This document shows positions 4,835-60,044 of a stretch of DNA of 64,000 bases, piece by piece (positions within the stretch are counted from its first letter, which is position 1; each line of letters opens with the position of its first letter). Both the position numbers and the translations under genes were made by a program. The DNA is from an uncultured Candidatus Saccharibacteria bacterium. GTDB lineage: Bacteria > Patescibacteriota > Doudnabacteria > UBA920. A model generated the notes under the pieces. It did not search any database, was not told the DNA's origin, and saw only the letters and a program-made list of their open reading frames with translations. The DNA lies in NCBI GenBank assembly GCA_964561365.1, contig CAZLPF010000002.1:10068-74067 (forward strand). Reading direction: 5' to 3'.

Positions 4835-4910
4835 GGGTCGGTAGCTCAGCTGGTAGAGCAGACGCCTCTTAAGCGTAAGCGCGCGGGTTCGAGCCCCGCC
4901 CGACCCACCA
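4835..4910 (+). tRNA. tRNA-Lys (anticodon CTT)
   Basis: Cloverleaf GGGTCGG...CCGACCCACCA closely resembles bacterial tRNA-Lys; anticodon loop CTCTTAA; CCA encoded. Confidence 0.9.
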
Positions 4911-4966
4911 CGGGTCAATCGTGACTGCGGTTTGCGTGTACTCGACTTCGTCGAATCCACTCCAAC

Positions 4967-5228
4967 CTCCGTCACGTTGCCCCTCTGCCCCACGAACCCC
5001 CTTCGGGTTTTCGTGGGGACCCCGACGAGCAGTTCACATTCCGTCCCTTTTCCCCATTCGAACTTTGTTCGAATGGGGACCCCGAGGGCAACAAATCATT
5101 TCAGCTTTCAGGACATTTCCCGTCTTCCCAAAAATCTTTCCGAGCTTTTTGGGGACCCCGCTAACCCTACCTCCGTCACGTTGCCCCTTTTCCCACGAAG
5201 CCCCTACTTGGTCTTCGCGGGGACCCCA
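4967..5228 (+). repeat. Cluster 1 of hairpin repeats (4 units at 4988-5024, 5052-5088, 5127-5160, 5192-5228) plus two copies of 19-bp direct repeat CCTCCGTCACGTTGCCCCT (4967 and 5169)
   Basis: Each unit: CCCYTTYCCCCA + variable stem + loop + complementary stem + TGGGGACCCCG(AGGGAAC); stems differ between units with compensatory changes (ACGAA/TTCGT, ATTCGAAC/GTTCGAAT, AAAAA/TTTTT). Confidence 0.7.
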
Positions 5229-25229: not shown

Positions 25230-25922
25230 TTACCCCTTCATGATGGCTTCTCTGGCTACCTCGCGGTACTGGCCGGGCGCGAGGTCTTTCGGGAGCTCGA
25301 GCGAACCGATGCGGATTCGCTTCAGATTTTTTACCGACAACCCGACGGTCTCGAACATGCGCCGGATTTGGCGCTTCTTGCCTTCGTGGATGGTGATGTA
25401 GACGTTACCGTTCCGCGTTCTGACCTTCGCCGGGTACGTGGTGCCCGTCGGGAGTTCGACGCCGGTTCGGAGCGTGTCGAGCTGCCGGTCGCTCGGCGCC
25501 TCCCGCGTAACCACCTCGTACTCCTTGTCGTGCTCGAACGACGGGTGGGCGAGCTGCTGGGTCAGGTCGCCGTCGTTCGTCATAACGAGCAGGCCCTCGG
25601 TGTCGTAGTCGAGCCGCCCGACGTTCCAGACCTGGCGCTGGAACTGCTCGGGCAGCAGCTGGTAGACGGTCTTGCGGCCTTCGGGGTCCCGCCTTGAAAC
25701 GACGTACCCCTTCGGTTTGTTCAGGATAATGTAGAGGTTCGCGCTTTTGGCCTTGATGATCTTTCCGTAGACTTTTACGACGTCTTTTTTCGGGTCGACC
25801 TTGTCGCCGAGTCCGGCCTTTTTACCGTTAATTTGAACCTGGCCCGAGCGGATGAACTGCTCTGCCTGGCGGCGCGACGCCACCCCGGCGGCGCTCAAAA
25901 ATTTCTGTACCCGTTCTAGCAT
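25230..25922 (-). CDS. rluB: rRNA pseudouridine synthase, RsuA/RluB family
   Basis: S4 domain (GVASRRQAEQFIRSGQVQING), catalytic VGRLDYDTEGLLVMTNDG; TATACT -10 7 nt upstream of ATG. Confidence 0.85.
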   Translation of the reverse strand: MLERVQKFLSAAGVASRRQAEQFIRSGQVQINGKKAGLGDKVDPKKDVVKVYGKIIKAKSANLYIILNKPKGYVVSRRDPEGRKTVYQLLPEQFQRQVWNVGRLDYDTEGLLVMTNDGDLTQQLAHPSFEHDKEYEVVTREAPSDRQLDTLRTGVELPTGTTYPAKVRTRNGNVYITIHEGKKRQIRRMFETVGLSVKNLKRIRIGSLELPKDLAPGQYREVAREAIMKG

Positions 25923-25946
25923 AGCTCTAAGTATAGGGCCCGGAGC

Positions 25947-25975
25947 TTGAAAAAACTAGGAAGGTATGCTAAATT
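25947..25975 (+). promoter_or_regulatory. Putative promoter TTGAAA-17-(TGc)TAAATT for tRNA-Arg operon
   Basis: Divergent from rluB promoter; extended -10 TGn. Confidence 0.4.
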
Positions 25976-26056
25976 GCGTCAGCTGTCTTTTGTGCAGCCC
26001 TGGTCTTCCAAGTGCAGTTCGCGGTCCCGGCTGTACCGGGGACGCAAACACAAAAC

Positions 26057-26084
26057 TGGAAGGGGAGGCCGGGAAGGGGAAACC
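26057..26084 (+). promoter_or_regulatory. Conserved leader box TGGAAGGGGAG-N-GAGGGGAAACC, copy 1 (38 nt before tRNA-Arg GCG)
   Basis: Near-identical 27/28-mer at 26423-26449, 40 nt before second tRNA-Arg. Confidence 0.45.
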
Positions 26085-26122
26085 TTGAGCGAAGCGAAAG
26101 GTGTCCCCTCACGAATTGTTTT

Positions 26123-26199
<77 letters not shown>

Positions 26200-26278
26200 G
26201 CATGGGCCATGCAACGATGCGGCTTTCGTGTGCTGAAAGACTTCAGCCCACTTCAGCCTTCCCGTTGCTGTCCCACTT

Positions 26279-26317
26279 CCCCACGAACCCCCTTATCGGG
26301 TCTTCGTGGGGACCCCG
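26279..26317 (+). repeat. Hairpin repeat unit (CCCCACGAA...TTCGTGGGGACCCCG) between the two tRNA-Arg genes
   Basis: Same family as cluster at 4967-5228. Confidence 0.65.
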
Positions 26318-26340
26318 GAGAATATTGGATCAAGAAGCAA

Positions 26341-26362
26341 TCCGCCGAAGGCGGATTTTTTG
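26341..26362 (+). terminator. Rho-independent terminator (TCCGCC-GAAG-GCGGA + T6)
   Basis: Canonical hairpin plus U-tract after first tRNA-Arg module. Confidence 0.7.
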
Positions 26363-26422
26363 CTAGACTGGCTTCAGTTCTTTTGTTTCCAAGCGCGGCT
26401 TCGCCGCTTTGGAAACTCAACA

Positions 26423-26449
26423 TGGAAGGGGAGCCCGCGAGGGGAAACC
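26423..26449 (+). promoter_or_regulatory. Conserved leader box, copy 2 (40 nt before tRNA-Arg TCT)
   Basis: TGGAAGGGGAGCCCGCGAGGGGAAACC. Confidence 0.45.
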
Positions 26450-26489
26450 ACGAGGCTTTCCGAGTGGTGTCACTTCGCGAGGCATTTGT

Positions 26490-26565
26490 GGGCCCGTAGC
26501 TCAGTTGGAAGAGCAAGGGACTTCTAAGCCCGAGGTCGCAGGTTCGATTCCTGCCGGGCCCACCA
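26490..26565 (+). tRNA. tRNA-Arg (anticodon TCT)
   Basis: Perfect acceptor, D and T stems; anticodon loop CTTCTAA identical to bacterial tRNA-Arg(UCU); anticodon stem has A-G mismatches at both ends; CCA encoded. Confidence 0.75.
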
Positions 26566-26640
26566 CGGGTCATCGAAAGCTACCGCTTACGTATTTCGCC
26601 TCCGGCGAATTACTTCAGCTTCCGCTTTCATGCCCCTTTA

Positions 26641-26824
26641 CCCCAAAAACCTCTTCGATCTTTTTGGGGACCCCGAGGGAACGTTCGGAACAGCTTCTAG
26701 GATGTTTCCCCTTACCCCACGAACCCCTCCGGGTCTTCGTGGGGACCCCGAGGGAACATGAGAACAGTTGTCATGGCCCTTTACCCCAAACTTCCTCCGT
26801 AGCTTTTGGGGACCCTTGGGGAAC
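26641..26824 (+). repeat. Cluster 2 of hairpin repeats (3 units at 26641-26682, 26715-26757, 26784-26824)
   Basis: CCCTTTACCCCA + stem-loop + TGGGGACCCCGAGGGAAC; about 70-bp periodicity. Confidence 0.7.
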
Positions 26825-27089
26825 AATCGAAGTTGTTTTCAGCAGTTTGTCCGTATTATCCAAAAATATAGGTAACGTAAAATATCAAATATTTTGAGAA
26901 AAAGTTTTCCCTTACGCGAGGGGAATTTTATTTTATCCACCGCGAACGCACAGGAAACGCACACTTTTTTGTTTGACACGCAAACGAAAATGCGATAAAA
27001 ATTTAGTAGAGGCATTCTCTGCAGATTCCAATCCAGACTCAGCATTAATCCGCCGGTCCGAGGCGGGTAGATGAGGGGAGGTGAGAAAC

Positions 27090-27266
27090 ATGCAGAACCT
27101 CTTCATGTACCGCTGCGAAGTCTGCGGGTACGCGAGGCAGAAGCCGGGGACCTGTCCGTTCTGTGAGCTGACGCTGGTCGATTACGACCGCGAAGCCCAG
27201 CGCGAGTACCAGGTCGACATGGAAGAAGCCATGCGCACCATGCGTGAACTCCAGTGGTATATCTAG
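27090..27266 (+). CDS. Small zinc-ribbon protein (CxxC...CxxC), acidic C-terminus
   Basis: ATG with GAGGGGAGGTGA SD; MYRCEVCG...CPFCE; sits in AT-rich segment next to recombinase gene. Confidence 0.5.
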   Translation: MQNLFMYRCEVCGYARQKPGTCPFCELTLVDYDREAQREYQVDMEEAMRTMRELQWYI

Positions 27267-31535: not shown

Positions 31536-31565
31536 TGCGGGTGCAGCGTTGACTAACGAACGGTT
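31536..31565 (+). promoter_or_regulatory. pnp leader hairpin (GACTAAC-GAACG-GTTAGTC)
   Basis: Stable stem-loop in rpsO-pnp intergenic region, position analogous to autoregulatory/RNase III-processed pnp leaders. Confidence 0.4.
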
Positions 31566-31608
31566 AGTCACCGTCCGCACGTACGCCAAACCCACGCAAG
31601 GAACACGC

Positions 31609-34011
31609 ATGTTCGAACGCAAGAGCGTTTCGACGCACGTCGGGAACGCCGACGTAAGTTTCGAGGTCGGCCGGGTGGCCGGCCAGGCCGACGCGGCCGT
31701 CCTGGCCCGCGCCGGCGACACCGTGGTGCTCGCCACGGTGGTCATGTCGAGGAAAGCCCGCGAAGGCATTGAGTTCTTCCCGCTGCTCGTTGACTACGAG
31801 GAGCGGCTGTACGCAGCGGGCAAAATTAAGGGCAGCCGCTGGATTAAGCGCGAGGGCCGCGCGTCCGACAACGCCATTCTCCGCGGCCGCGTCATTGACC
31901 GTAGCTTACGCCCGCTCTTCCCCGACGGCATGCGCAACGACGTCCAGGTCGTGGCCACGGTCATGTCGTACGACGGCGTAAACGATCCCGACATTCTCGC
32001 GGTCAACGCCGCCTCCATGGCGCTCCACCTTTCCCACGTGCCGTTCGACGGCCCCATTTCGAGCGTCCGCGTCGGCATGGCTGAGGGACAGCTCGTGGTG
32101 AACCCTTCCCCCGAGCAGGTTGAAACCGGCGACATGGACCTCGTGGTCTGCGGCACGGGCGACCACATCATCATGGTTGAGGCCGGCCTCAAGTTCGTTC
32201 CCGAGACGAAGATCGTCGAGGGTGTCCGCTTCGCCCAGCAGTACCTCGGCGCGCTCTGCAAGCTCCAGGACGAGTTCCGCAAGCAGGTCGGCAAGGAGAA
32301 GACGTCCGACGTCATATACAGCAAGCCCGCCGAACAGATTGTGGACTTCGTCCACGGGTTTGCCACCGACGACAAGATTGACGCCGCACTCTACGTGCCC
32401 ACAAAAGAGCAGCGCGACGCCGGCGAGTTTAAACTCGAGAAAGAAACCGTAGCAGCGGCGAAAGAAAAGTTCGGTAGCACGCTCGGTGAAGCGGTAAACG
32501 TGGAGAAGCAGACGGCCGACGCGCTCAACAAAATAATGAAGCAGTACACGCGTAAGCAGATTCTGGAAAAGGAGCGCCGCGTGGACGGCCGCAAGCTGGA
32601 CCAGACCCGGCAGATTACCTGCGAGGTCGGCGTGCTGCCCCGCACCCACGGCTCGGCACTGTTTACCCGCGGCGAGACCCAGGCCCTGACCACGGTGACT
32701 TTGGGCAGCAAGGGCGACGAGCAGATGCTCGACGGCATTGACGACCCCTCCGAGGGCACGCCGAAGCGCTACATGCACCACTACAACATGCCGGGCTATT
32801 CGGTCGGCGAGGTGACGCCCATCCGCGGCCCCGGCCGGCGCGAGATAGGCCACGGGGCGCTCGCCGAGCGCGCCGTGGAGTTCAGCCTGCCCGCGCAGAC
32901 CGAGTTCCCGTACACCATGCGCCTCGTCTCCGAGGTGCTCTCGAGCAACGGCTCGACCTCCATGGCGAGCACCTGCGGCAGCACGCTCGCGCTCATGGAC
33001 GCCGGCGTTCCCATTCAGAAGATTGTCGGCGGCGTGGCCATGGGCCTCGTCATGGACGAGCAGAACCCCTCGCGCTTCAAGGTCCTGACCGACATTGCCG
33101 GCATTGAGGACTTCAACGGCCACATGGATTTCAAGGTCACCGGCACCGAAGAGGGCGTCACCGCGCTCCAGCTCGACATCAAGGTCAAGGGCTTAACGCC
33201 CGAGATCCTCGAAGCCGCGCTCGAGCAGGCCAAGCCCGGGCGCGCGTACATTCTTTCCAAAATGAAAGAGTGCCTCGACAAGCCGCGGCCCGACCTCTCG
33301 CCGTACGCGCCGCGCATCTACACCCTGCACATTAAGCCGGAGAAGATCCGCGAGGTCATCGGCAGCGGCGGCAAGGTGGTCAACGACATCATCGCCAAGA
33401 CCGGCGTGAAGATCGACATTGAGAACGACGGGACCATCATGGTCGTCTCGGTCGACAAGCAGGCCGCCGACCGCGCCATTGAAATGATCAACGCCATTGC
33501 CCGCGACCCGGAGCCGGGCGAGGTCTTCGAGGGCAAGGTGACCCGCCTCATGAACTTCGGCGCCTTCGTCGAGATTGCGCCGGGCAAGGAAGGCATGGTC
33601 CACGTCAGCGAGCTCGCCAACTACCGCGTCGGCCAGCCGTCGGACGTGGTGAGCGTCGGCGATCCGCTCAAGGTCCAGGTTTTGGAGATTGACGACCAGG
33701 GCCGCCTGAACCTCACGCACCGTCCGTTCGCCGGACCCGCGCCCGAGGGCGCCGAGCCCCGCGGCCCGGCCGGCGGCGACCGCGGCCCGCGCGACTTCCG
33801 CAGCGGACCCCCGCGCGGTGGCCACGGTGGTGGCCACGGCGGCGGTTTCCGGGGCGGCCACGGCGGCCCGCGGCACGGCGGCGGCGACCGCGGCCCGCGC
33901 CGCGACTTCGGTGACCGCGCCCCGCGCCCGCCCCGCCCCGAGGGCCCGGCAACTCCCGGCGCGCCGGCCGCTCCCGGCCAGAAGTACGACTTCGAAGAGT
34001 TCGAACTTTAA
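31609..34011 (+). CDS. pnp: Polyribonucleotide nucleotidyltransferase (PNPase) with long Gly/Arg-rich C-terminal tail
   Basis: Two RNase PH domains, KH and S1 domains; start at MFERKS with AAGGA SD (ORF-track TTG start 31549 lies inside hairpin); about 100-aa RGG/GGHGG tail. Confidence 0.9.
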   Translation: MFERKSVSTHVGNADVSFEVGRVAGQADAAVLARAGDTVVLATVVMSRKAREGIEFFPLLVDYEERLYAAGKIKGSRWIKREGRASDNAILRGRVIDRSLRPLFPDGMRNDVQVVATVMSYDGVNDPDILAVNAASMALHLSHVPFDGPISSVRVGMAEGQLVVNPSPEQVETGDMDLVVCGTGDHIIMVEAGLKFVPETKIVEGVRFAQQYLGALCKLQDEFRKQVGKEKTSDVIYSKPAEQIVDFVHGFATDDKIDAALYVPTKEQRDAGEFKLEKETVAAAKEKFGSTLGEAVNVEKQTADALNKIMKQYTRKQILEKERRVDGRKLDQTRQITCEVGVLPRTHGSALFTRGETQALTTVTLGSKGDEQMLDGIDDPSEGTPKRYMHHYNMPGYSVGEVTPIRGPGRREIGHGALAERAVEFSLPAQTEFPYTMRLVSEVLSSNGSTSMASTCGSTLALMDAGVPIQKIVGGVAMGLVMDEQNPSRFKVLTDIAGIEDFNGHMDFKVTGTEEGVTALQLDIKVKGLTPEILEAALEQAKPGRAYILSKMKECLDKPRPDLSPYAPRIYTLHIKPEKIREVIGSGGKVVNDIIAKTGVKIDIENDGTIMVVSVDKQAADRAIEMINAIARDPEPGEVFEGKVTRLMNFGAFVEIAPGKEGMVHVSELANYRVGQPSDVVSVGDPLKVQVLEIDDQGRLNLTHRPFAGPAPEGAEPRGPAGGDRGPRDFRSGPPRGGHGGGHGGGFRGGHGGPRHGGGDRGPRRDFGDRAPRPPRPEGPATPGAPAAPGQKYDFEEFEL

Positions 34012-56014: not shown

Positions 56015-56017
56015 CGC
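56009..56017 (+). promoter_or_regulatory. Extended -10 TGGTAGAAT immediately upstream of tRNA-Leu
   Basis: Within uppP 3' end; 7 nt before tRNA 5' end. Confidence 0.4.
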
Positions 56018-56024
56018 CGGAGTG

Positions 56025-56108
56025 GCGGAATGGCAGACGCACGCGACTCAAAATCGCGCGGGGAAACCCATGAGGGTTCGACTCCCTCCTCCGGCACCAC
56101 GGGCCCTG
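56025..56108 (+). tRNA. tRNA-Leu (anticodon CAA)
   Basis: Long variable arm, anticodon loop CTCAAAA, acceptor GCCGGAG/CTCCGGC, CCA encoded. Confidence 0.9.
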
Positions 56109-56211
56109 CATGGCTGCAGCCTGCGAGTACTGAATGTGTTCAGTCCTCTCTGGCTTTCGCCACCAACTCCTCCTACCCGATGAACCTGTCCGGGGTTCAT
56201 GGCAATCCCAA

Positions 56212-57309
56212 ATGGAAAACAACATGGACGACATACAGGCTCCACGGCCCAGCGGCGTGACGTTCGAGCCCCTCGGCGCCCCCATTCCGGTGCCGCCGTT
56301 TCAGCCTGCCCAGCGCGCCCTGCCGCCGGACGACCCGTTCAGCCGCATTACCGGCATTCCGTCGCCGGCGTTCAACCAAATCGCGAGCGGCGCGCAGCCA
56401 CACGCCGTGCCTGCTTCCGCGCCTGCCCCAAAACCCCCACAAACCACGCCCTCTTTCGTGTCCCCCTCGCCTTCGGCCGATCGGATTTCCTATGCCGACG
56501 CGAAAATCCAAGAGGTTGAAATAACCTCAATAGTCCCGAACCCCTACCAGCCGCGGAAAGTTTTCGATCCCCAGGCGCTCCGCGAGCTCGCCGACTCCAT
56601 AGCCGAGCACGGCGTCATTCAGCCGCTCGTGGTGACGCGAACGCCGTCGGGCTACGAAATCGTCGTCGGCGAGCGCCGCTTCCGCGCGAGCCAGCTCGCC
56701 GGTCTCTCGCGCGTGCCGGTCATCGTCAAGAACCAGCTCGAGGACATTACCAAACTCGAGGTCGCGCTCATTGAGAACATCCAGCGCCAGGAGCTGAACC
56801 CCATAGAAGAGGCGCAGGCCTACGACCGGCTCATGAAGACCTTCAAGCTCACCCAGGAGCAGGTGGCCAAGAAGGTCGGCAAGGCGCGGCCGTCGGTCGC
56901 CAACACCATCCGGCTCTTGAATCTCCCGGCGGAAATCCAGCGCGGGCTCGTGGAGGGGAAAATTTCCGAGGGCCACGCCCGCGCCATTTTAGGCCTCGTG
57001 GACCGTGAGAAGATGCTCGCCATGTACCAGCAGGTGCTCGACAGCGGCTGGAACGTGCGCCAGGTGGAGCTGAAGGTCCGCGAAATTTCCGAGCGCCGCC
57101 GCGTGGACGCCGCCGCCCCGGACCCCAAACTCATGGCCCTCGAGGGCGAGCTCCGCACCAAGCTCGGTACGCAGGTGAAAATTCAGCGGCAGGGGCGGGG
57201 CGGGAAAATTACCATTGAGTTCTTTTCGGAAGATGAGCTCGCGGACATTGTGGGCCGCATGGCCGAGCACCCGAGCGACGCCCCAGACGCCGGCTACATC
57301 GCCGTGTAG
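56212..57309 (+). CDS. parB: ParB/Spo0J family partition protein (Pro-rich N-terminal extension)
   Basis: ParB box GERRFRA, HTH KLTQEQVAKKVGKARPSVANTIRLL; no parA in window. Confidence 0.8.
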   Translation: MENNMDDIQAPRPSGVTFEPLGAPIPVPPFQPAQRALPPDDPFSRITGIPSPAFNQIASGAQPHAVPASAPAPKPPQTTPSFVSPSPSADRISYADAKIQEVEITSIVPNPYQPRKVFDPQALRELADSIAEHGVIQPLVVTRTPSGYEIVVGERRFRASQLAGLSRVPVIVKNQLEDITKLEVALIENIQRQELNPIEEAQAYDRLMKTFKLTQEQVAKKVGKARPSVANTIRLLNLPAEIQRGLVEGKISEGHARAILGLVDREKMLAMYQQVLDSGWNVRQVELKVREISERRRVDAAAPDPKLMALEGELRTKLGTQVKIQRQGRGGKITIEFFSEDELADIVGRMAEHPSDAPDAGYIAV

Positions 57310-59523: not shown

Positions 59524-59540
59524 CGCGTGAAGGAACTAGC

Positions 59541-60044
59541 ATGGCCGAAATAAAAAAACGTCGAAAATCAAAACTGTCCACAGCTGCTAAAAAACCTCCG
59601 GGGTGGCTGTCTGACCGCGAGTACCTCCGGATTTTTTCCCGCGTGCCGCGCCTGTGCGTTGACCTGGCCATTTTGGGACCCGGCGGGCTGCTGCTGGGCT
59701 GGCGCAGCCACGACCCGAGCCCGAACACCTGGAACCTTCCCGGTGGCCGCGTCCGCTTCCGGGAAACCGTAACGAAAGCGGCCCAGCGGATTGCCCGAAC
59801 CGAGCTCGGCGTCGGGCTGCGGGGGATTCGCGTGCTCGGCGTCATGGAGTTTTTAAACGAGGTGGACCGCGGGACGCCGATTCACTCCGTGAGCGTCGTT
59901 GTTTCAGCGTCGCTCGCCGGCAAACTGAAGCCGAACGGCCGCACCGCCCGGTTTCGGCACGTGCCCCGTTCGTTCTACCCGGTGCACCGCCGGTTCGCGC
60001 TCGTGCATGGCCTCATCCGTCCCGGTCCGCATTCGGCCCGCTGA
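59541..60044 (+). CDS. NUDIX-fold protein with degenerate Nudix box
   Basis: PGGRVRFRETVTKAAQRIARTELGV: Gx5E and R..E..G retained but REUxEE reduced to RIARTE. Confidence 0.55.
   Translation: MAEIKKRRKSKLSTAAKKPPGWLSDREYLRIFSRVPRLCVDLAILGPGGLLLGWRSHDPSPNTWNLPGGRVRFRETVTKAAQRIARTELGVGLRGIRVLGVMEFLNEVDRGTPIHSVSVVVSASLAGKLKPNGRTARFRHVPRSFYPVHRRFALVHGLIRPGPHSAR

What the first reader, a model, noticed from the sequence alone, without database searches (positions are those of the whole stretch)
26279..26824. Cluster 2 of the same hairpin-repeat family interleaved with two tRNA-Arg modules
Seen in sequence: one unit (26279-26317) follows tRNA-Arg(GCG), then a canonical hairpin+T6 terminator (26341-26362). 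After tRNA-Arg(TCT) come three tandem units (26641-26682, 26715-26757, 26784-26824) with about 70-bp periodicity and the shared 3' tail TGGGGACCCCGAGGGAACA. Stems are ACGAA-type, AAAAA-type, ACGAA-type and AAA-type, homologous to the cluster-1 variants (for example CCAAAAACCTCTTCGATCTTTTTGG versus CCAAAAATCTTTCCGAGCTTTTTGG). Two loci 21 kb apart, both tRNA-adjacent, strengthen the link between this repeat family and tRNA transcription units.
Basis: seen in the sequence. Interest (0 to 1): 0.55.

Follow-up and report, generated by a model that had tools for sequence, protein, structure and literature searches.

The report
Structured RNA cassette abutting tRNA ends
The "hairpin repeats" are the second hairpin of a conserved, roughly 115-base two-hairpin element that starts one base after the CCA end of many tRNA genes in some Patescibacteria (candidate phyla radiation), matches no Rfam family, and probably acts on the tRNA transcript's 3' trailer.

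Summary
All four units are at the stated coordinates, and the shared tail occurs far more often than chance (4 matches against 0.11 expected).

The units are not free-standing. Each is hairpin 2 plus the R-CCCC tail of a larger element:
- C+1
- a long hairpin 1, with base GGGUCA/UGCCCC and conserved U.C mismatches
- a UUU linker
- a roughly 12-bp hairpin 2, CCCCA...UGGGG
- the tail R-CCCC

The element begins exactly one nucleotide after the encoded CCA in 17 of 18 tRNA-adjacent copies. The later "tandem units" are short-hairpin-1 versions chained head to tail.

The element occurs in about a dozen Patescibacteria contigs with differing GC content, after Lys, Arg, Leu, Thr, Tyr, Pro, Gln and Val tRNAs. 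It is absent from three other Patescibacteria lineages, from viral contigs and from Rfam.

Covariation is very strong: 94% of cells are paired against 66% when shuffled, and 27 of 33 pairs show double changes. Canonical terminators follow it, so it is not itself a terminator.

Best reading: a co-transcribed 3'-trailer RNA cassette, with hairpin 2 + RCCC mimicking a tRNA acceptor end. This fits an RNase P-type or related end-processing signal. Function is inferred, not shown.

Rivals are a self-cleaving ribozyme, a selfish single-stranded-DNA repeat and a trailer-derived small RNA.

The parts
25947..25975 (+). Promoter-like site (TTGAAA-17-TAAATT, with TG) upstream of the tRNA-Arg(GCG) cassette.
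   Evidence: This is a consensus match only.
26057..26122 (+). Structured leader of the Arg(GCG) cassette (GGAAGGGGAG...GGGGAAACC hairpin). It is paralogous to 26423-26489.
   Evidence: (D5).
26123..26199 (+). tRNA-Arg(GCG), with CCA encoded.
26203..26316 (+). Full element copy: hairpin 1 at 26204-26274, linker 26275-26278, hairpin 2 at 26279-26311, tail A-CCCC at 26312-26316. It is offset by 3 extra nt (GCA) from the CCA, the only tRNA-adjacent copy that does not start at +1.
   Evidence: Covariance model (CM) hit of 87.8 bits, E=3.6e-18; sequence.
26339..26363 (+). Canonical intrinsic terminator (8-bp stem plus T run) ending the first cassette.
26423..26489 (+). Leader of the Arg(TCT) cassette, a paralogue of 26057-26122.
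26490..26565 (+). tRNA-Arg(TCT), with CCA encoded.
26566..26674 (+). Full element copy starting at CCA+1: hairpin 1 at 26567-26636, linker 26637-26640, hairpin 2 at 26641-26669, tail A-CCCC at 26670-26674.
   Evidence: CM hit of 99.9 bits, E=5.7e-21.
26675..26749 (+). Short-form copy: short hairpin 1 GGGAAC...GTTTCCCC at 26677-26711, linker TTA, hairpin 2 at 26715-26744, tail at 26745-26749.
   Evidence: Sequence; fold; weak CM hit at 26730-26822; hairpin scan.
26750..26816 (+). Short-form copy: short hairpin 1 at 26752-26779 (GGG..CATGA/TCATG..CCC), linker, hairpin 2 at 26784-26811, degenerate tail A-CCCT.
   Evidence: Sequence.
26818..26845 (+). Trailing partial copy: GGGGAACAA..TTGTT hairpin followed by TTTC.
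   Evidence: Sequence; inference.
26906..26932 (+). Terminator-like hairpin plus T run that probably ends the second cassette.
4835..4910 (+). tRNA-Lys(CTT), with CCA encoded (cluster 1).
4911..5023 (+). Full element copy at CCA+1 of tRNA-Lys (hairpin 2 plus tail at 4988-5023).
   Evidence: CM hit of 100 bits, E=5.4e-21.
5024..5227 (+). Three further short or truncated copies (hairpin 2 plus tail at 5052-5083, 5127-5159 and 5192-5227).
56100..56215 (+). Degenerate full-length copy at CCA+1 of tRNA-Leu(CAA), which lies at 56016-56099.
   Evidence: CM hit of 38.4 bits, E=9e-7; sequence.

Best explanation
The repeats are copies of a conserved structured element that is transcribed as part of the tRNA 3' trailer.

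A full copy is about 115 nt and consists of:
- C+1
- hairpin 1, of about 70-75 nt. Its base is G2G3G4-U-CA paired with UG-C-CCC. It has a conserved U.C mismatch and two 3x3 pyrimidine loops (UNC/UYC).
- a U-rich 3-5 nt linker
- hairpin 2, CCCCA...UGGGG, of 10-13 bp and mostly 12 bp
- a single-stranded tail, purine then CCCC.

Short forms keep only the base of hairpin 1. They chain head to tail, each starting right after the previous tail.

Shown:
- the anatomy
- the fixed junction with CCA
- selection on the base-pairing
- location inside the tRNA transcription unit, between the tRNA and a canonical terminator or the next tRNA
- restriction to certain lineages.

Inferred mechanism: the cassette works at the RNA level as an end-processing and insulating module.
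- Hairpin 2, with U at -1, a 12-bp stem, a purine 'discriminator' and CC(C), mimics a tRNA acceptor/T-arm minihelix with its RCCA end. It would therefore be recognised by the tRNA end-processing machinery. RNase P cutting at UUU|CCCC is the most specific guess.
- This would sever the tRNA-plus-hairpin-1 piece from downstream RNA.
- The same helix-N-CC(A/C)|(C/G)-GGG junction recurs at the tRNA end and at every unit boundary. One activity could therefore release the tRNA 3' end and separate the units.
For: Anatomy and junction:
- 17 of 18 tRNA-adjacent copies start exactly at CCA+1.
- All 18 of these tRNAs encode CCA.

Structure:
- RNAalifold predicts the two hairpins; 24 of 33 pairs have compensatory changes.
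- On 22 covariance-model (CM) hits, 94.3% of cells are paired against 66.2% in shuffles. 27 pairs have double changes, and 0 of 500 shuffles reach the observed values. Slid controls give 40-52%.
- The top mutual-information column pairs are almost all modelled pairs; the few that are not are adjacent to or overlap them.
- The basal helix covaries: GGGUCA/UGCCCC becomes GCGUGA/UCCCGC in L073:4893 and L057:1026. This argues against 5' GGG pairing with the 3' tail.
- The two paralogous Arg cassettes in this window differ in the hairpin 1 stem by compensatory changes.

Transcript context:
- Promoter-like sites lie upstream, and canonical terminators follow the element in the window and in L073.
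- The element lies between Tyr and Thr tRNAs in L066.

Acceptor-end mimicry:
- Hairpin 2 has 10-13 bp.
- The nucleotide before it is U in most copies.
- The next base is A or G in 21 of 22 copies, followed by CCC in 21-22 of 22.

Other:
- No Rfam family matches on either strand.
- The element recurs in about a dozen Patescibacteria contigs from several metagenomes.
Against: - No expression or cleavage data exist.
- Three of the 7 tRNAs in this window, and whole Patescibacteria lineages with the same tRNA operon, lack the element. It is therefore not required for tRNA maturation.
- Degenerate, truncated and tandem copies look like a birth-and-death repeat.
- One high-scoring copy (L060/L074) has no tRNA upstream and lies antisense to its neighbours.
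- The complementary strand folds more stably in 22 of 22 copies, with means of -50.9 and -45.5 kcal/mol.
- The conserved mismatches are U.C on the tRNA strand, which is G.A on the other strand. A.C (13) outnumbers G.U (8) in the 19 good copies. The strand under selection is therefore not proven to be the tRNA-sense RNA.
- RNase P cleavage at hairpin 2 would not by itself free the CCA end.
Confidence: 0.45

Rival explanations
1. A selfish, DNA-level repeat, in the manner of a miniature inverted-repeat transposable element (MITE), a REP (repetitive extragenic palindrome) element or an IS200/IS605 relative. It would be mobilised as single-stranded hairpin DNA and insert 3' of a CCA-like target. 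Its own tail RCCC would then recreate a target, which would explain head-to-tail arrays.
For: - Patchy lineage distribution.
- Variable positions within orthologous Thr-Tyr-Thr operons.
- Tandem, truncated and degenerate copies.
- The second L029 copy is preceded by AACCA without a tRNA.
- There is a stand-alone copy in L060.
- Near-identical copies follow different tRNAs in related contigs.
- There is no G.U excess, and the complementary strand is the more stable one.
Against: - No transposase or other associated gene was seen in any locus, although this was not searched systematically.
- Copies within one genome have completely different stem sequences but keep 94% pairing. The two paralogous Arg cassettes evolved by compensatory change along with their tRNAs. 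This indicates long-term selection on each resident copy, not recent amplification.
- A 3-nt CCA target cannot explain the tRNA specificity.
Confidence: 0.2
2. A new class of self-cleaving ribozyme that cuts at its own 5' edge (A76|C+1). It would release a tRNA ending in CCA, functionally like the HDV-like theta ribozymes found 3' of phage tRNAs.
For: - The 5' boundary is exact at CCA+1 in 17 of 18 copies.
- The conserved unpaired or mismatched nucleotides all converge on the junction next to the putative scissile site. These are C+1, U5.C73, the UUU linker, R116 and the CCCC tail.
- There is a precedent for tRNA 3'-trailer ribozymes (PMC10879173).
- The same junction recurs between tandem units.
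Against: - The covariation-supported fold is two independent hairpins with no pseudoknot signal.
- There is no Rfam hit to HDV, hatchet, twister, pistol or hammerhead, even at E<=10.
- The Arg(GCG) copy is offset by 3 nt, which would leave CCAGCA.
- Most of the conserved positions are G-C pairs rather than loop nucleotides.
- There is no biochemical evidence.
Confidence: 0.12
3. A trans-acting small RNA made from the tRNA 3' external transcribed spacer. The tRNA would merely supply a promoter and a defined 5' end, and the C-rich tail or pyrimidine loops would pair with G-rich targets or sponge another RNA or protein.
For: - The tRNA-element-terminator architecture gives a discrete RNA of about 150 nt.
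- A stand-alone copy exists.
- The single-stranded CCCC tail is conserved.
- From memory, the 3'ETS-leuZ sponge and rtT RNA of E. coli are precedents.
Against: - There are many copies per small genome, each with different stem and loop sequences.
- Only helix bases and the tail are conserved, and no target was identified.
- Decaying copies exist.
Confidence: 0.1
4. Intrinsic transcription terminators or attenuators of the tRNA operons.
For: Stable GC-based hairpins lie immediately downstream of tRNA genes.
Against: - No U tract follows either hairpin.
- Canonical hairpin-plus-T-run terminators follow the element in the window (26339-26357) and in L073.
- The element sits between co-transcribed tRNAs in L066 and L057.
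Confidence: 0.03

Closest known systems
Theta ribozymes (minimal HDV-like ribozymes 3' of tRNAs in gut Caudoviricetes; PMC10879173)
   Same: A structured RNA placed directly downstream of tRNA genes. The authors proposed that it processes the tRNA 3' trailer.
   Different: - Theta ribozymes have the HDV nested double-pseudoknot fold with a catalytic C in J4/2. This element has two independent hairpins and no pseudoknot signal.
- Theta ribozymes are in phages, and only 4.5% of their tRNAs encode CCA. This element is in cellular Patescibacteria, every associated tRNA encodes CCA, and viral contigs gave no hits.
RNase P minihelix and 4.5S-RNA-type substrates (a hairpin of about 12 bp with a 3' RCC(A/C) end; from established knowledge, recalled from memory)
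   Same: Hairpin 2 has 10-13 bp, a U just upstream, a purine after the stem and then CCC. These are the determinants that bacterial RNase P reads on acceptor/T-arm minihelices.
   Different: The first pair is C-G rather than G-C. There is a conserved mismatch at layer 10. Cleavage is untested, and the element has an additional long hairpin 1 with no counterpart.
rtT RNA / tyrT 3' repeats of E. coli, and 3'ETS-derived sRNAs such as 3'ETS-leuZ (from memory; rtT is an Rfam family, per memory)
   Same: Repeated or structured RNA released from the 3' trailer of a tRNA operon. The repeats can include the tRNA 3' end.
   Different: There is no sequence or structure match (no Rfam hits). Those cases are single-locus enterobacterial features, not a multi-copy family that follows many different tRNAs.
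REP/BIME elements and MITE-like hairpin repeats (including IS200/IS605-derived palindrome-associated elements)
   Same: A short, multi-copy, hairpin-forming intergenic repeat with tandem and truncated copies and a patchy distribution.
   Different: - All copies share one orientation, fixed relative to the tRNA.
- The 5' junction is exact.
- Stems diverge strongly but are compensated within one genome.
- No GTAG-type REP head or RAYT/TnpA gene was seen.

Membership tests
HDV-like / theta ribozymes | Match to the HDV-type covariance models. | tested here: not met
   Rfam cmscan on both strands at E<=10 over 25900-27100 lists no HDV-type family.
HDV-like / theta ribozymes | Nested double pseudoknot (P1, P1.1, P2, P3, P4), with the P1 3' strand in the middle and the P2 3' strand at the 3' end. 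| tested here: not met
   Covariation supports two separate hairpins: 5' GGGUCA pairs with UGCCCC and closes hairpin 1. Mutual-information analysis shows no extra long-range pairs.
HDV-like / theta ribozymes | Self-cleavage at the ribozyme 5' end. | not testable with these tools
   This needs an in vitro transcription and cleavage assay.
Any described RNA family (Rfam 15) | Score at or above the gathering threshold. | tested here: not met
   Only tRNAs pass, in the window and in 5 related loci. The sub-threshold hits over the element itself are weak and unrelated; the two Plastid-ycf2 hits with E below 0.001 lie over the tRNA genes on the opposite strand, not over the element.
Intrinsic terminator | GC-rich hairpin followed directly by a U tract. 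| tested here: not met
   Hairpin 1 is followed by UUU then CCCC, and hairpin 2 by RCCCC. The scan calls terminators only downstream of the element.
CRISPR array | Near-identical direct repeats separated by unique spacers, usually with cas genes nearby. | tested here: not met
   Unit stems differ (ACGAA, AAAAA, UUCGAA) with compensatory changes, and the spacers are themselves homologous short hairpins. The presence of cas genes was not checked.
REP/BIME or IS200/IS605-derived palindromic elements | A conserved head sequence plus an imperfect palindrome. Copies occur in both orientations or in alternating clusters, and a cognate RAYT/TnpA is present in the genome. | tested here: inconclusive
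   Orientation is uniform and tRNA-linked. No transposase was noticed in the loci held, but whole genomes could not be scanned.
RNase P minihelix-type substrate (a 'works like' test) | A roughly 12-bp coaxial helix, a single-stranded 5' leader (U at -1 preferred), and a purine discriminator followed by CC. | tested here: met
   Stems of 10-13 bp with spans of 25-33 nt (one spurious overlapping 49-nt call at L057 aside). Column 79/80 is mostly U, column 116 is A or G in 21 of 22, and columns 117-119 are C in 21-22 of 22.
RNase P minihelix-type substrate (a 'works like' test) | Actual cleavage by RNase P at the 5' side of the helix. | not testable with these tools
   This needs an enzymatic assay or 5'-end mapping.
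tRNA 3' external-transcribed-spacer RNA (a generic kind) | Lies between the tRNA 3' end and the operon terminator or next tRNA, on the tRNA strand. | tested here: met

The most novel reading that the evidence does not exclude
The cassette is an undescribed RNA-based tRNA 3'-end maturation device of CPR bacteria. It would be either a new self-cleaving ribozyme class that cuts precisely after the encoded CCA, or an acceptor-end mimic that recruits RNase P or RNase Z. Either way it would substitute for exonucleases that these reduced genomes may lack, and it can be chained in tandem.
Probability: 0.15. Interest if true: 0.85.

Novelty: new variant of a known kind. Interest (0 to 1): 0.62.

Why it matters
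tRNA 3'-end maturation is poorly understood outside model bacteria. Patescibacteria have minimal RNA-processing toolkits.

This family has unusually strong covariation, an exact junction with the CCA end and an acceptor-end look-alike. That makes it a concrete handle that can be tested in vitro on how these organisms process tRNA operons.

If the selfish reading is right instead, it would be a rare example of a repeat that targets tRNA 3' ends.

It also supplies a covariance model for annotating intergenic regions of Patescibacteria that are currently unannotated.

Tried and rejected
- **Orthologous RluB loci.** The loci of the closest relatives (L001-L008) have no tRNAs and no motif, so they are uninformative.
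- **Genome-collection scan.** A hairpin 2 pattern gave 45 hits. Only the Patescibacteria hit L029 was read, and it is a real copy; 10 of the others had no adjacent tRNA and the rest were not examined. The window's own genome is not in that collection.
- **Viral contigs.** Two pattern scans plus a model search found no genuine copy.
- **HolA fragment as a synteny anchor.** The protein search returned nothing.
- **Extending the window's contig.** Look-ups of window proteins either failed or gave a 2-kb contig.
- **Correlation with encoded CCA.** Lineages that lack the element also mostly encode CCA, so CCA encoding does not predict the element.
- **Closing helix between 5' GGGUC and 3' GACCC (three-way junction).** Rejected, because the 5' GGG covaries with the CCC of UGCCCC instead.
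- **Leader-trailer pairing in the Arg cassettes.** One 8-nt complementarity was seen (I6-I7), but it is not conserved in other loci.
- **Integron attC, CRISPR and tRNA-pseudogene readings.** These were considered and dropped on anatomy.
- **Literature.** Four searches and two papers found no description of the element.

Full report
**1. Observation**

The sequence at 26279-26824 is as described.
- ARAGORN and Rfam place tRNA-Arg(GCG) at 26123-26199 and tRNA-Arg(TCT) at 26490-26565.
- One unit follows the first tRNA, and then a canonical terminator at 26339-26357 plus a T run.
- Three units follow the second tRNA, with starts 74 and 69 nt apart.
- The 18-mer tail with up to 3 mismatches occurs 4 times against 0.11 expected, and 0 of 100 shuffles reach 4.
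- The exact core GGGGACCCC occurs seven times on the + strand (plus once on the - strand, inside tRNA-Arg(TCG), which is not a unit). All seven + strand copies are in the trailers of tRNA-Lys (cluster 1), tRNA-Arg(GCG) and tRNA-Arg(TCT). An eighth unit has GGGGACCCT.

**2. What the units really are**

The window is from a Patescibacteria (CPR) genome with about 62% GC. Its pseudouridine synthase is at most 73% identical to its nearest relatives (other than a 99%-identical copy of itself), one of which (72%) is annotated as Candidatus Doudnabacteria.

A pattern scan of reference genomes found one genuine relative, a low-GC Patescibacteria MAG (L029). It carries two copies after tRNA-Leu(TAG). 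That comparison showed that conservation starts immediately after the tRNA: CCA|CGGGTCA, then a hairpin, then TTGCCCC-TTT-CCCCA...TGGGG-R-CCCC.

A metagenome scan anchored on this pattern returned 24 loci.
- 13 are genuine, one of them (L061) being the same contig as L029.
- 11 of the 13 lie directly after a tRNA CCA end. The tRNAs are Thr, Tyr, Pro, Gln, Leu and Val.
- The other two (L060 and L074) are the same stand-alone copy with no tRNA upstream.

I aligned 14 copies and built covariance model R1. The model then found further copies:
- a degenerate one at 56100-56215, at CCA+1 of tRNA-Leu(CAA) in the window;
- copies after tRNA-Pro (L073) and tRNA-Tyr (L057);
- a 72-nt short form in L064.

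Four of the seven tRNAs in the window therefore carry the element. tRNA-Arg(TCG), His and Pro(GGG) do not.

**3. Anatomy**

The consensus reads as follows:
- C+1.
- Hairpin 1, at positions 2-76. Its base is GGG-U-CA / UG-C-CCC with a conserved U5.C73 mismatch. Three variable helices follow, separated by two 3x3 loops (5'-UNC / 5'-UYC). The apex is variable.
- A linker, UUU, of 3-5 nt.
- Hairpin 2, with an invariant CCCCA/UGGGG base, an A/U-rich middle, a frequent C.A or C.U mismatch at layer 10, three more pairs and a 3-7 nt loop.
- A tail of A or G followed by CCCC.

Hairpin 2 has 10-13 bp. In full copies it starts 72-80 nt after the tRNA end.

The shared GAGGGAAC is the 5' strand of the next copy's shortened hairpin 1. 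Examples are GGGAAC...GTTTCCC at 26677-26711 and GGG..CATGA/TCATG..CCC at 26752-26779. The "tandem units" are therefore short-form elements chained head to tail. Each starts after the previous RCCCC, just as the first starts after NCCA.

**4. Is the structure selected?**

Yes.
- RNAalifold gives 33 pairs, 24 of them with compensatory changes.
- On 22 model hits, 94.3% of cells pair, against 66.2% in column shuffles and 40-52% with slid partners.
- 27 of 33 pairs show double changes, and 0 of 500 shuffles reach any observed measure.
- The highest mutual-information column pairs are almost all modelled pairs; the few exceptions are adjacent to or overlap them, with no extra long-range signal.
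- Two copies have GCGUGA...UCCCGC in place of GGGUCA...UGCCCC. This fixes the partner of the 5' GGG as the CCC that closes hairpin 1, not the 3' tail.
- Within this window, the two Arg cassettes are paralogous over leader, tRNA and element at 80% identity. Their hairpin 1 stems differ by compensatory changes: GCAACG/CGTTGC against CGAAAGC/GCTTTC.

**5. Context**

- Promoter-like sites precede the cassettes.
- Canonical terminators follow the element in the window and in L073.
- In L066 and L057 the element lies between co-transcribed tRNAs.

The element is therefore part of the tRNA primary transcript and is not the terminator.

Among related Thr-Tyr-Thr-(rpmG)-Trp operons, the element sits after different tRNAs, in full or short form, sometimes with an extra hairpin-1-like stem. 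Parts have been swapped between close relatives.

Loci anchored on ribosomal protein L33 came from three other Patescibacteria groups: Parcubacteria, Buchananbacteria and one unnamed. They have the operon but no element. Viral contigs have none.

One high-scoring copy (L060/L074) has no tRNA. It lies antisense, 34 nt upstream of efp.

**6. Mechanism**

Shown: a structured element under selection, fused to the CCA end, inside the tRNA transcript.

Inferred: it acts as an RNA-level processing and insulating cassette.

The most specific clue is that hairpin 2 looks like a tRNA acceptor/T-arm minihelix. It has U at -1, about 12 bp, a purine "discriminator" and then CC(C). Bacterial RNase P reads these determinants (established knowledge, recalled from memory). 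The same helix-N-CC(A/C)|(C/G)GGG junction recurs at the tRNA end and at each unit boundary. One activity could therefore cut at all of them.

I commit to this reading at moderate confidence of 0.45. That figure covers [quoted passage not shown]. The specific RNase P step is perhaps 0.25.

**7. Caveats and rivals**

- The element is dispensable at many tRNAs and in whole lineages.
- Decayed, truncated and tandem copies exist.
- The complementary strand folds better in 22 of 22 copies, with means of -50.9 and -45.5 kcal/mol.
- The conserved mismatches are U.C on the tRNA strand, which is G.A on the other strand.
- A.C outnumbers G.U, 13 to 8, in the 19 good copies.

These points keep a DNA-level selfish repeat alive at 0.20.

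A self-cleaving ribozyme stands at 0.12. It is suggested by the exact CCA+1 boundary and by the theta-ribozyme precedent (PMC10879173). However, the fold is not HDV-like, no ribozyme model matches, and one copy is offset by 3 nt.

A trailer-derived trans-acting sRNA is at 0.10. A terminator is at 0.03 and is effectively refuted.

**8. Known or new?**

There is no Rfam 15 match on either strand. Full-text searches found nothing, nor did a 2026 paper on Patescibacteria tRNA genes.

It belongs to the general kind "structured or repeated RNA in tRNA 3' trailers", alongside theta ribozymes, rtT and 3'ETS sRNAs, but it fails the membership tests for each. I rate it a new variant of a known kind, with interest 0.62.

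Noticed in passing
window 26123-26199: tRNA-Arg has the anticodon GCG. From memory, bacteria normally decode CGN with tRNA-Arg(ACG) modified to inosine. A related contig (L060) does have Arg(ACG). This may reflect loss of TadA in this lineage.
   Followed up: no
window 26057-26122 and 26423-26489: The two Arg tRNAs have homologous G-rich structured leaders (TGGAAGGGGAG...GGGGAAACC-hairpin-GTGTC). Part of the first leader (GGGAAGGGGAAAC) is complementary to GTTTCCCCTTACC at 26704-26716 in the second trailer.
   Followed up: partly
window 59524-59550: tRNA-Pro(GGG) is followed by CGCGTGA. This is the variant 5' motif of the element seen after tRNA-Pro in L073 and tRNA-Tyr in L057. Here an ORF start follows 27 nt later, so it may be a truncated remnant.
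   Followed up: no
L064 792-839 (minus strand): A truncated tRNA fragment (GACCACCTAGTTCAGCTGGCAGAGCATCTGTTTTG) lies between tRNA-Tyr and tRNA-Thr(TGT). It indicates local tRNA-level duplication and decay in these operons.
   Followed up: no
L071 10601-10747: Two adjacent 'tRNA-Val(CAC)' calls lie 1 nt apart. The second is atypical, with the anticodon at position 27. It is this second one that is followed by the element, and it may be a pseudogene or a mis-called tRNA.
   Followed up: no
L064/L065/L072, about 10-90 nt downstream of the element: A further conserved stem (GCAAATC..CGTGCTC..inner hairpin..GCGCTCCT..GATTTGC) resembles a second hairpin 1 without a hairpin 2. Its apical hairpin (GTCCCGC/GCGGGAC) reappears as the short hairpin 1 of L064:1018.
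   Followed up: partly
window 31549-34011: The polynucleotide phosphorylase ORF (820 aa) carries a long C-terminal tail rich in Arg, Gly and Pro (GGHGGGHGGGFRGGHGGPRHGGGDRGPRR...).
   Followed up: no
L094-L096 5600-5690 and 5920-5990 (L094 coordinates): The Buchananbacteria tRNA spacers contain a different AT-rich repeat (TTAACAGTTAACAATTAAC...), and some tRNA genes there lack an encoded CCA.
   Followed up: no
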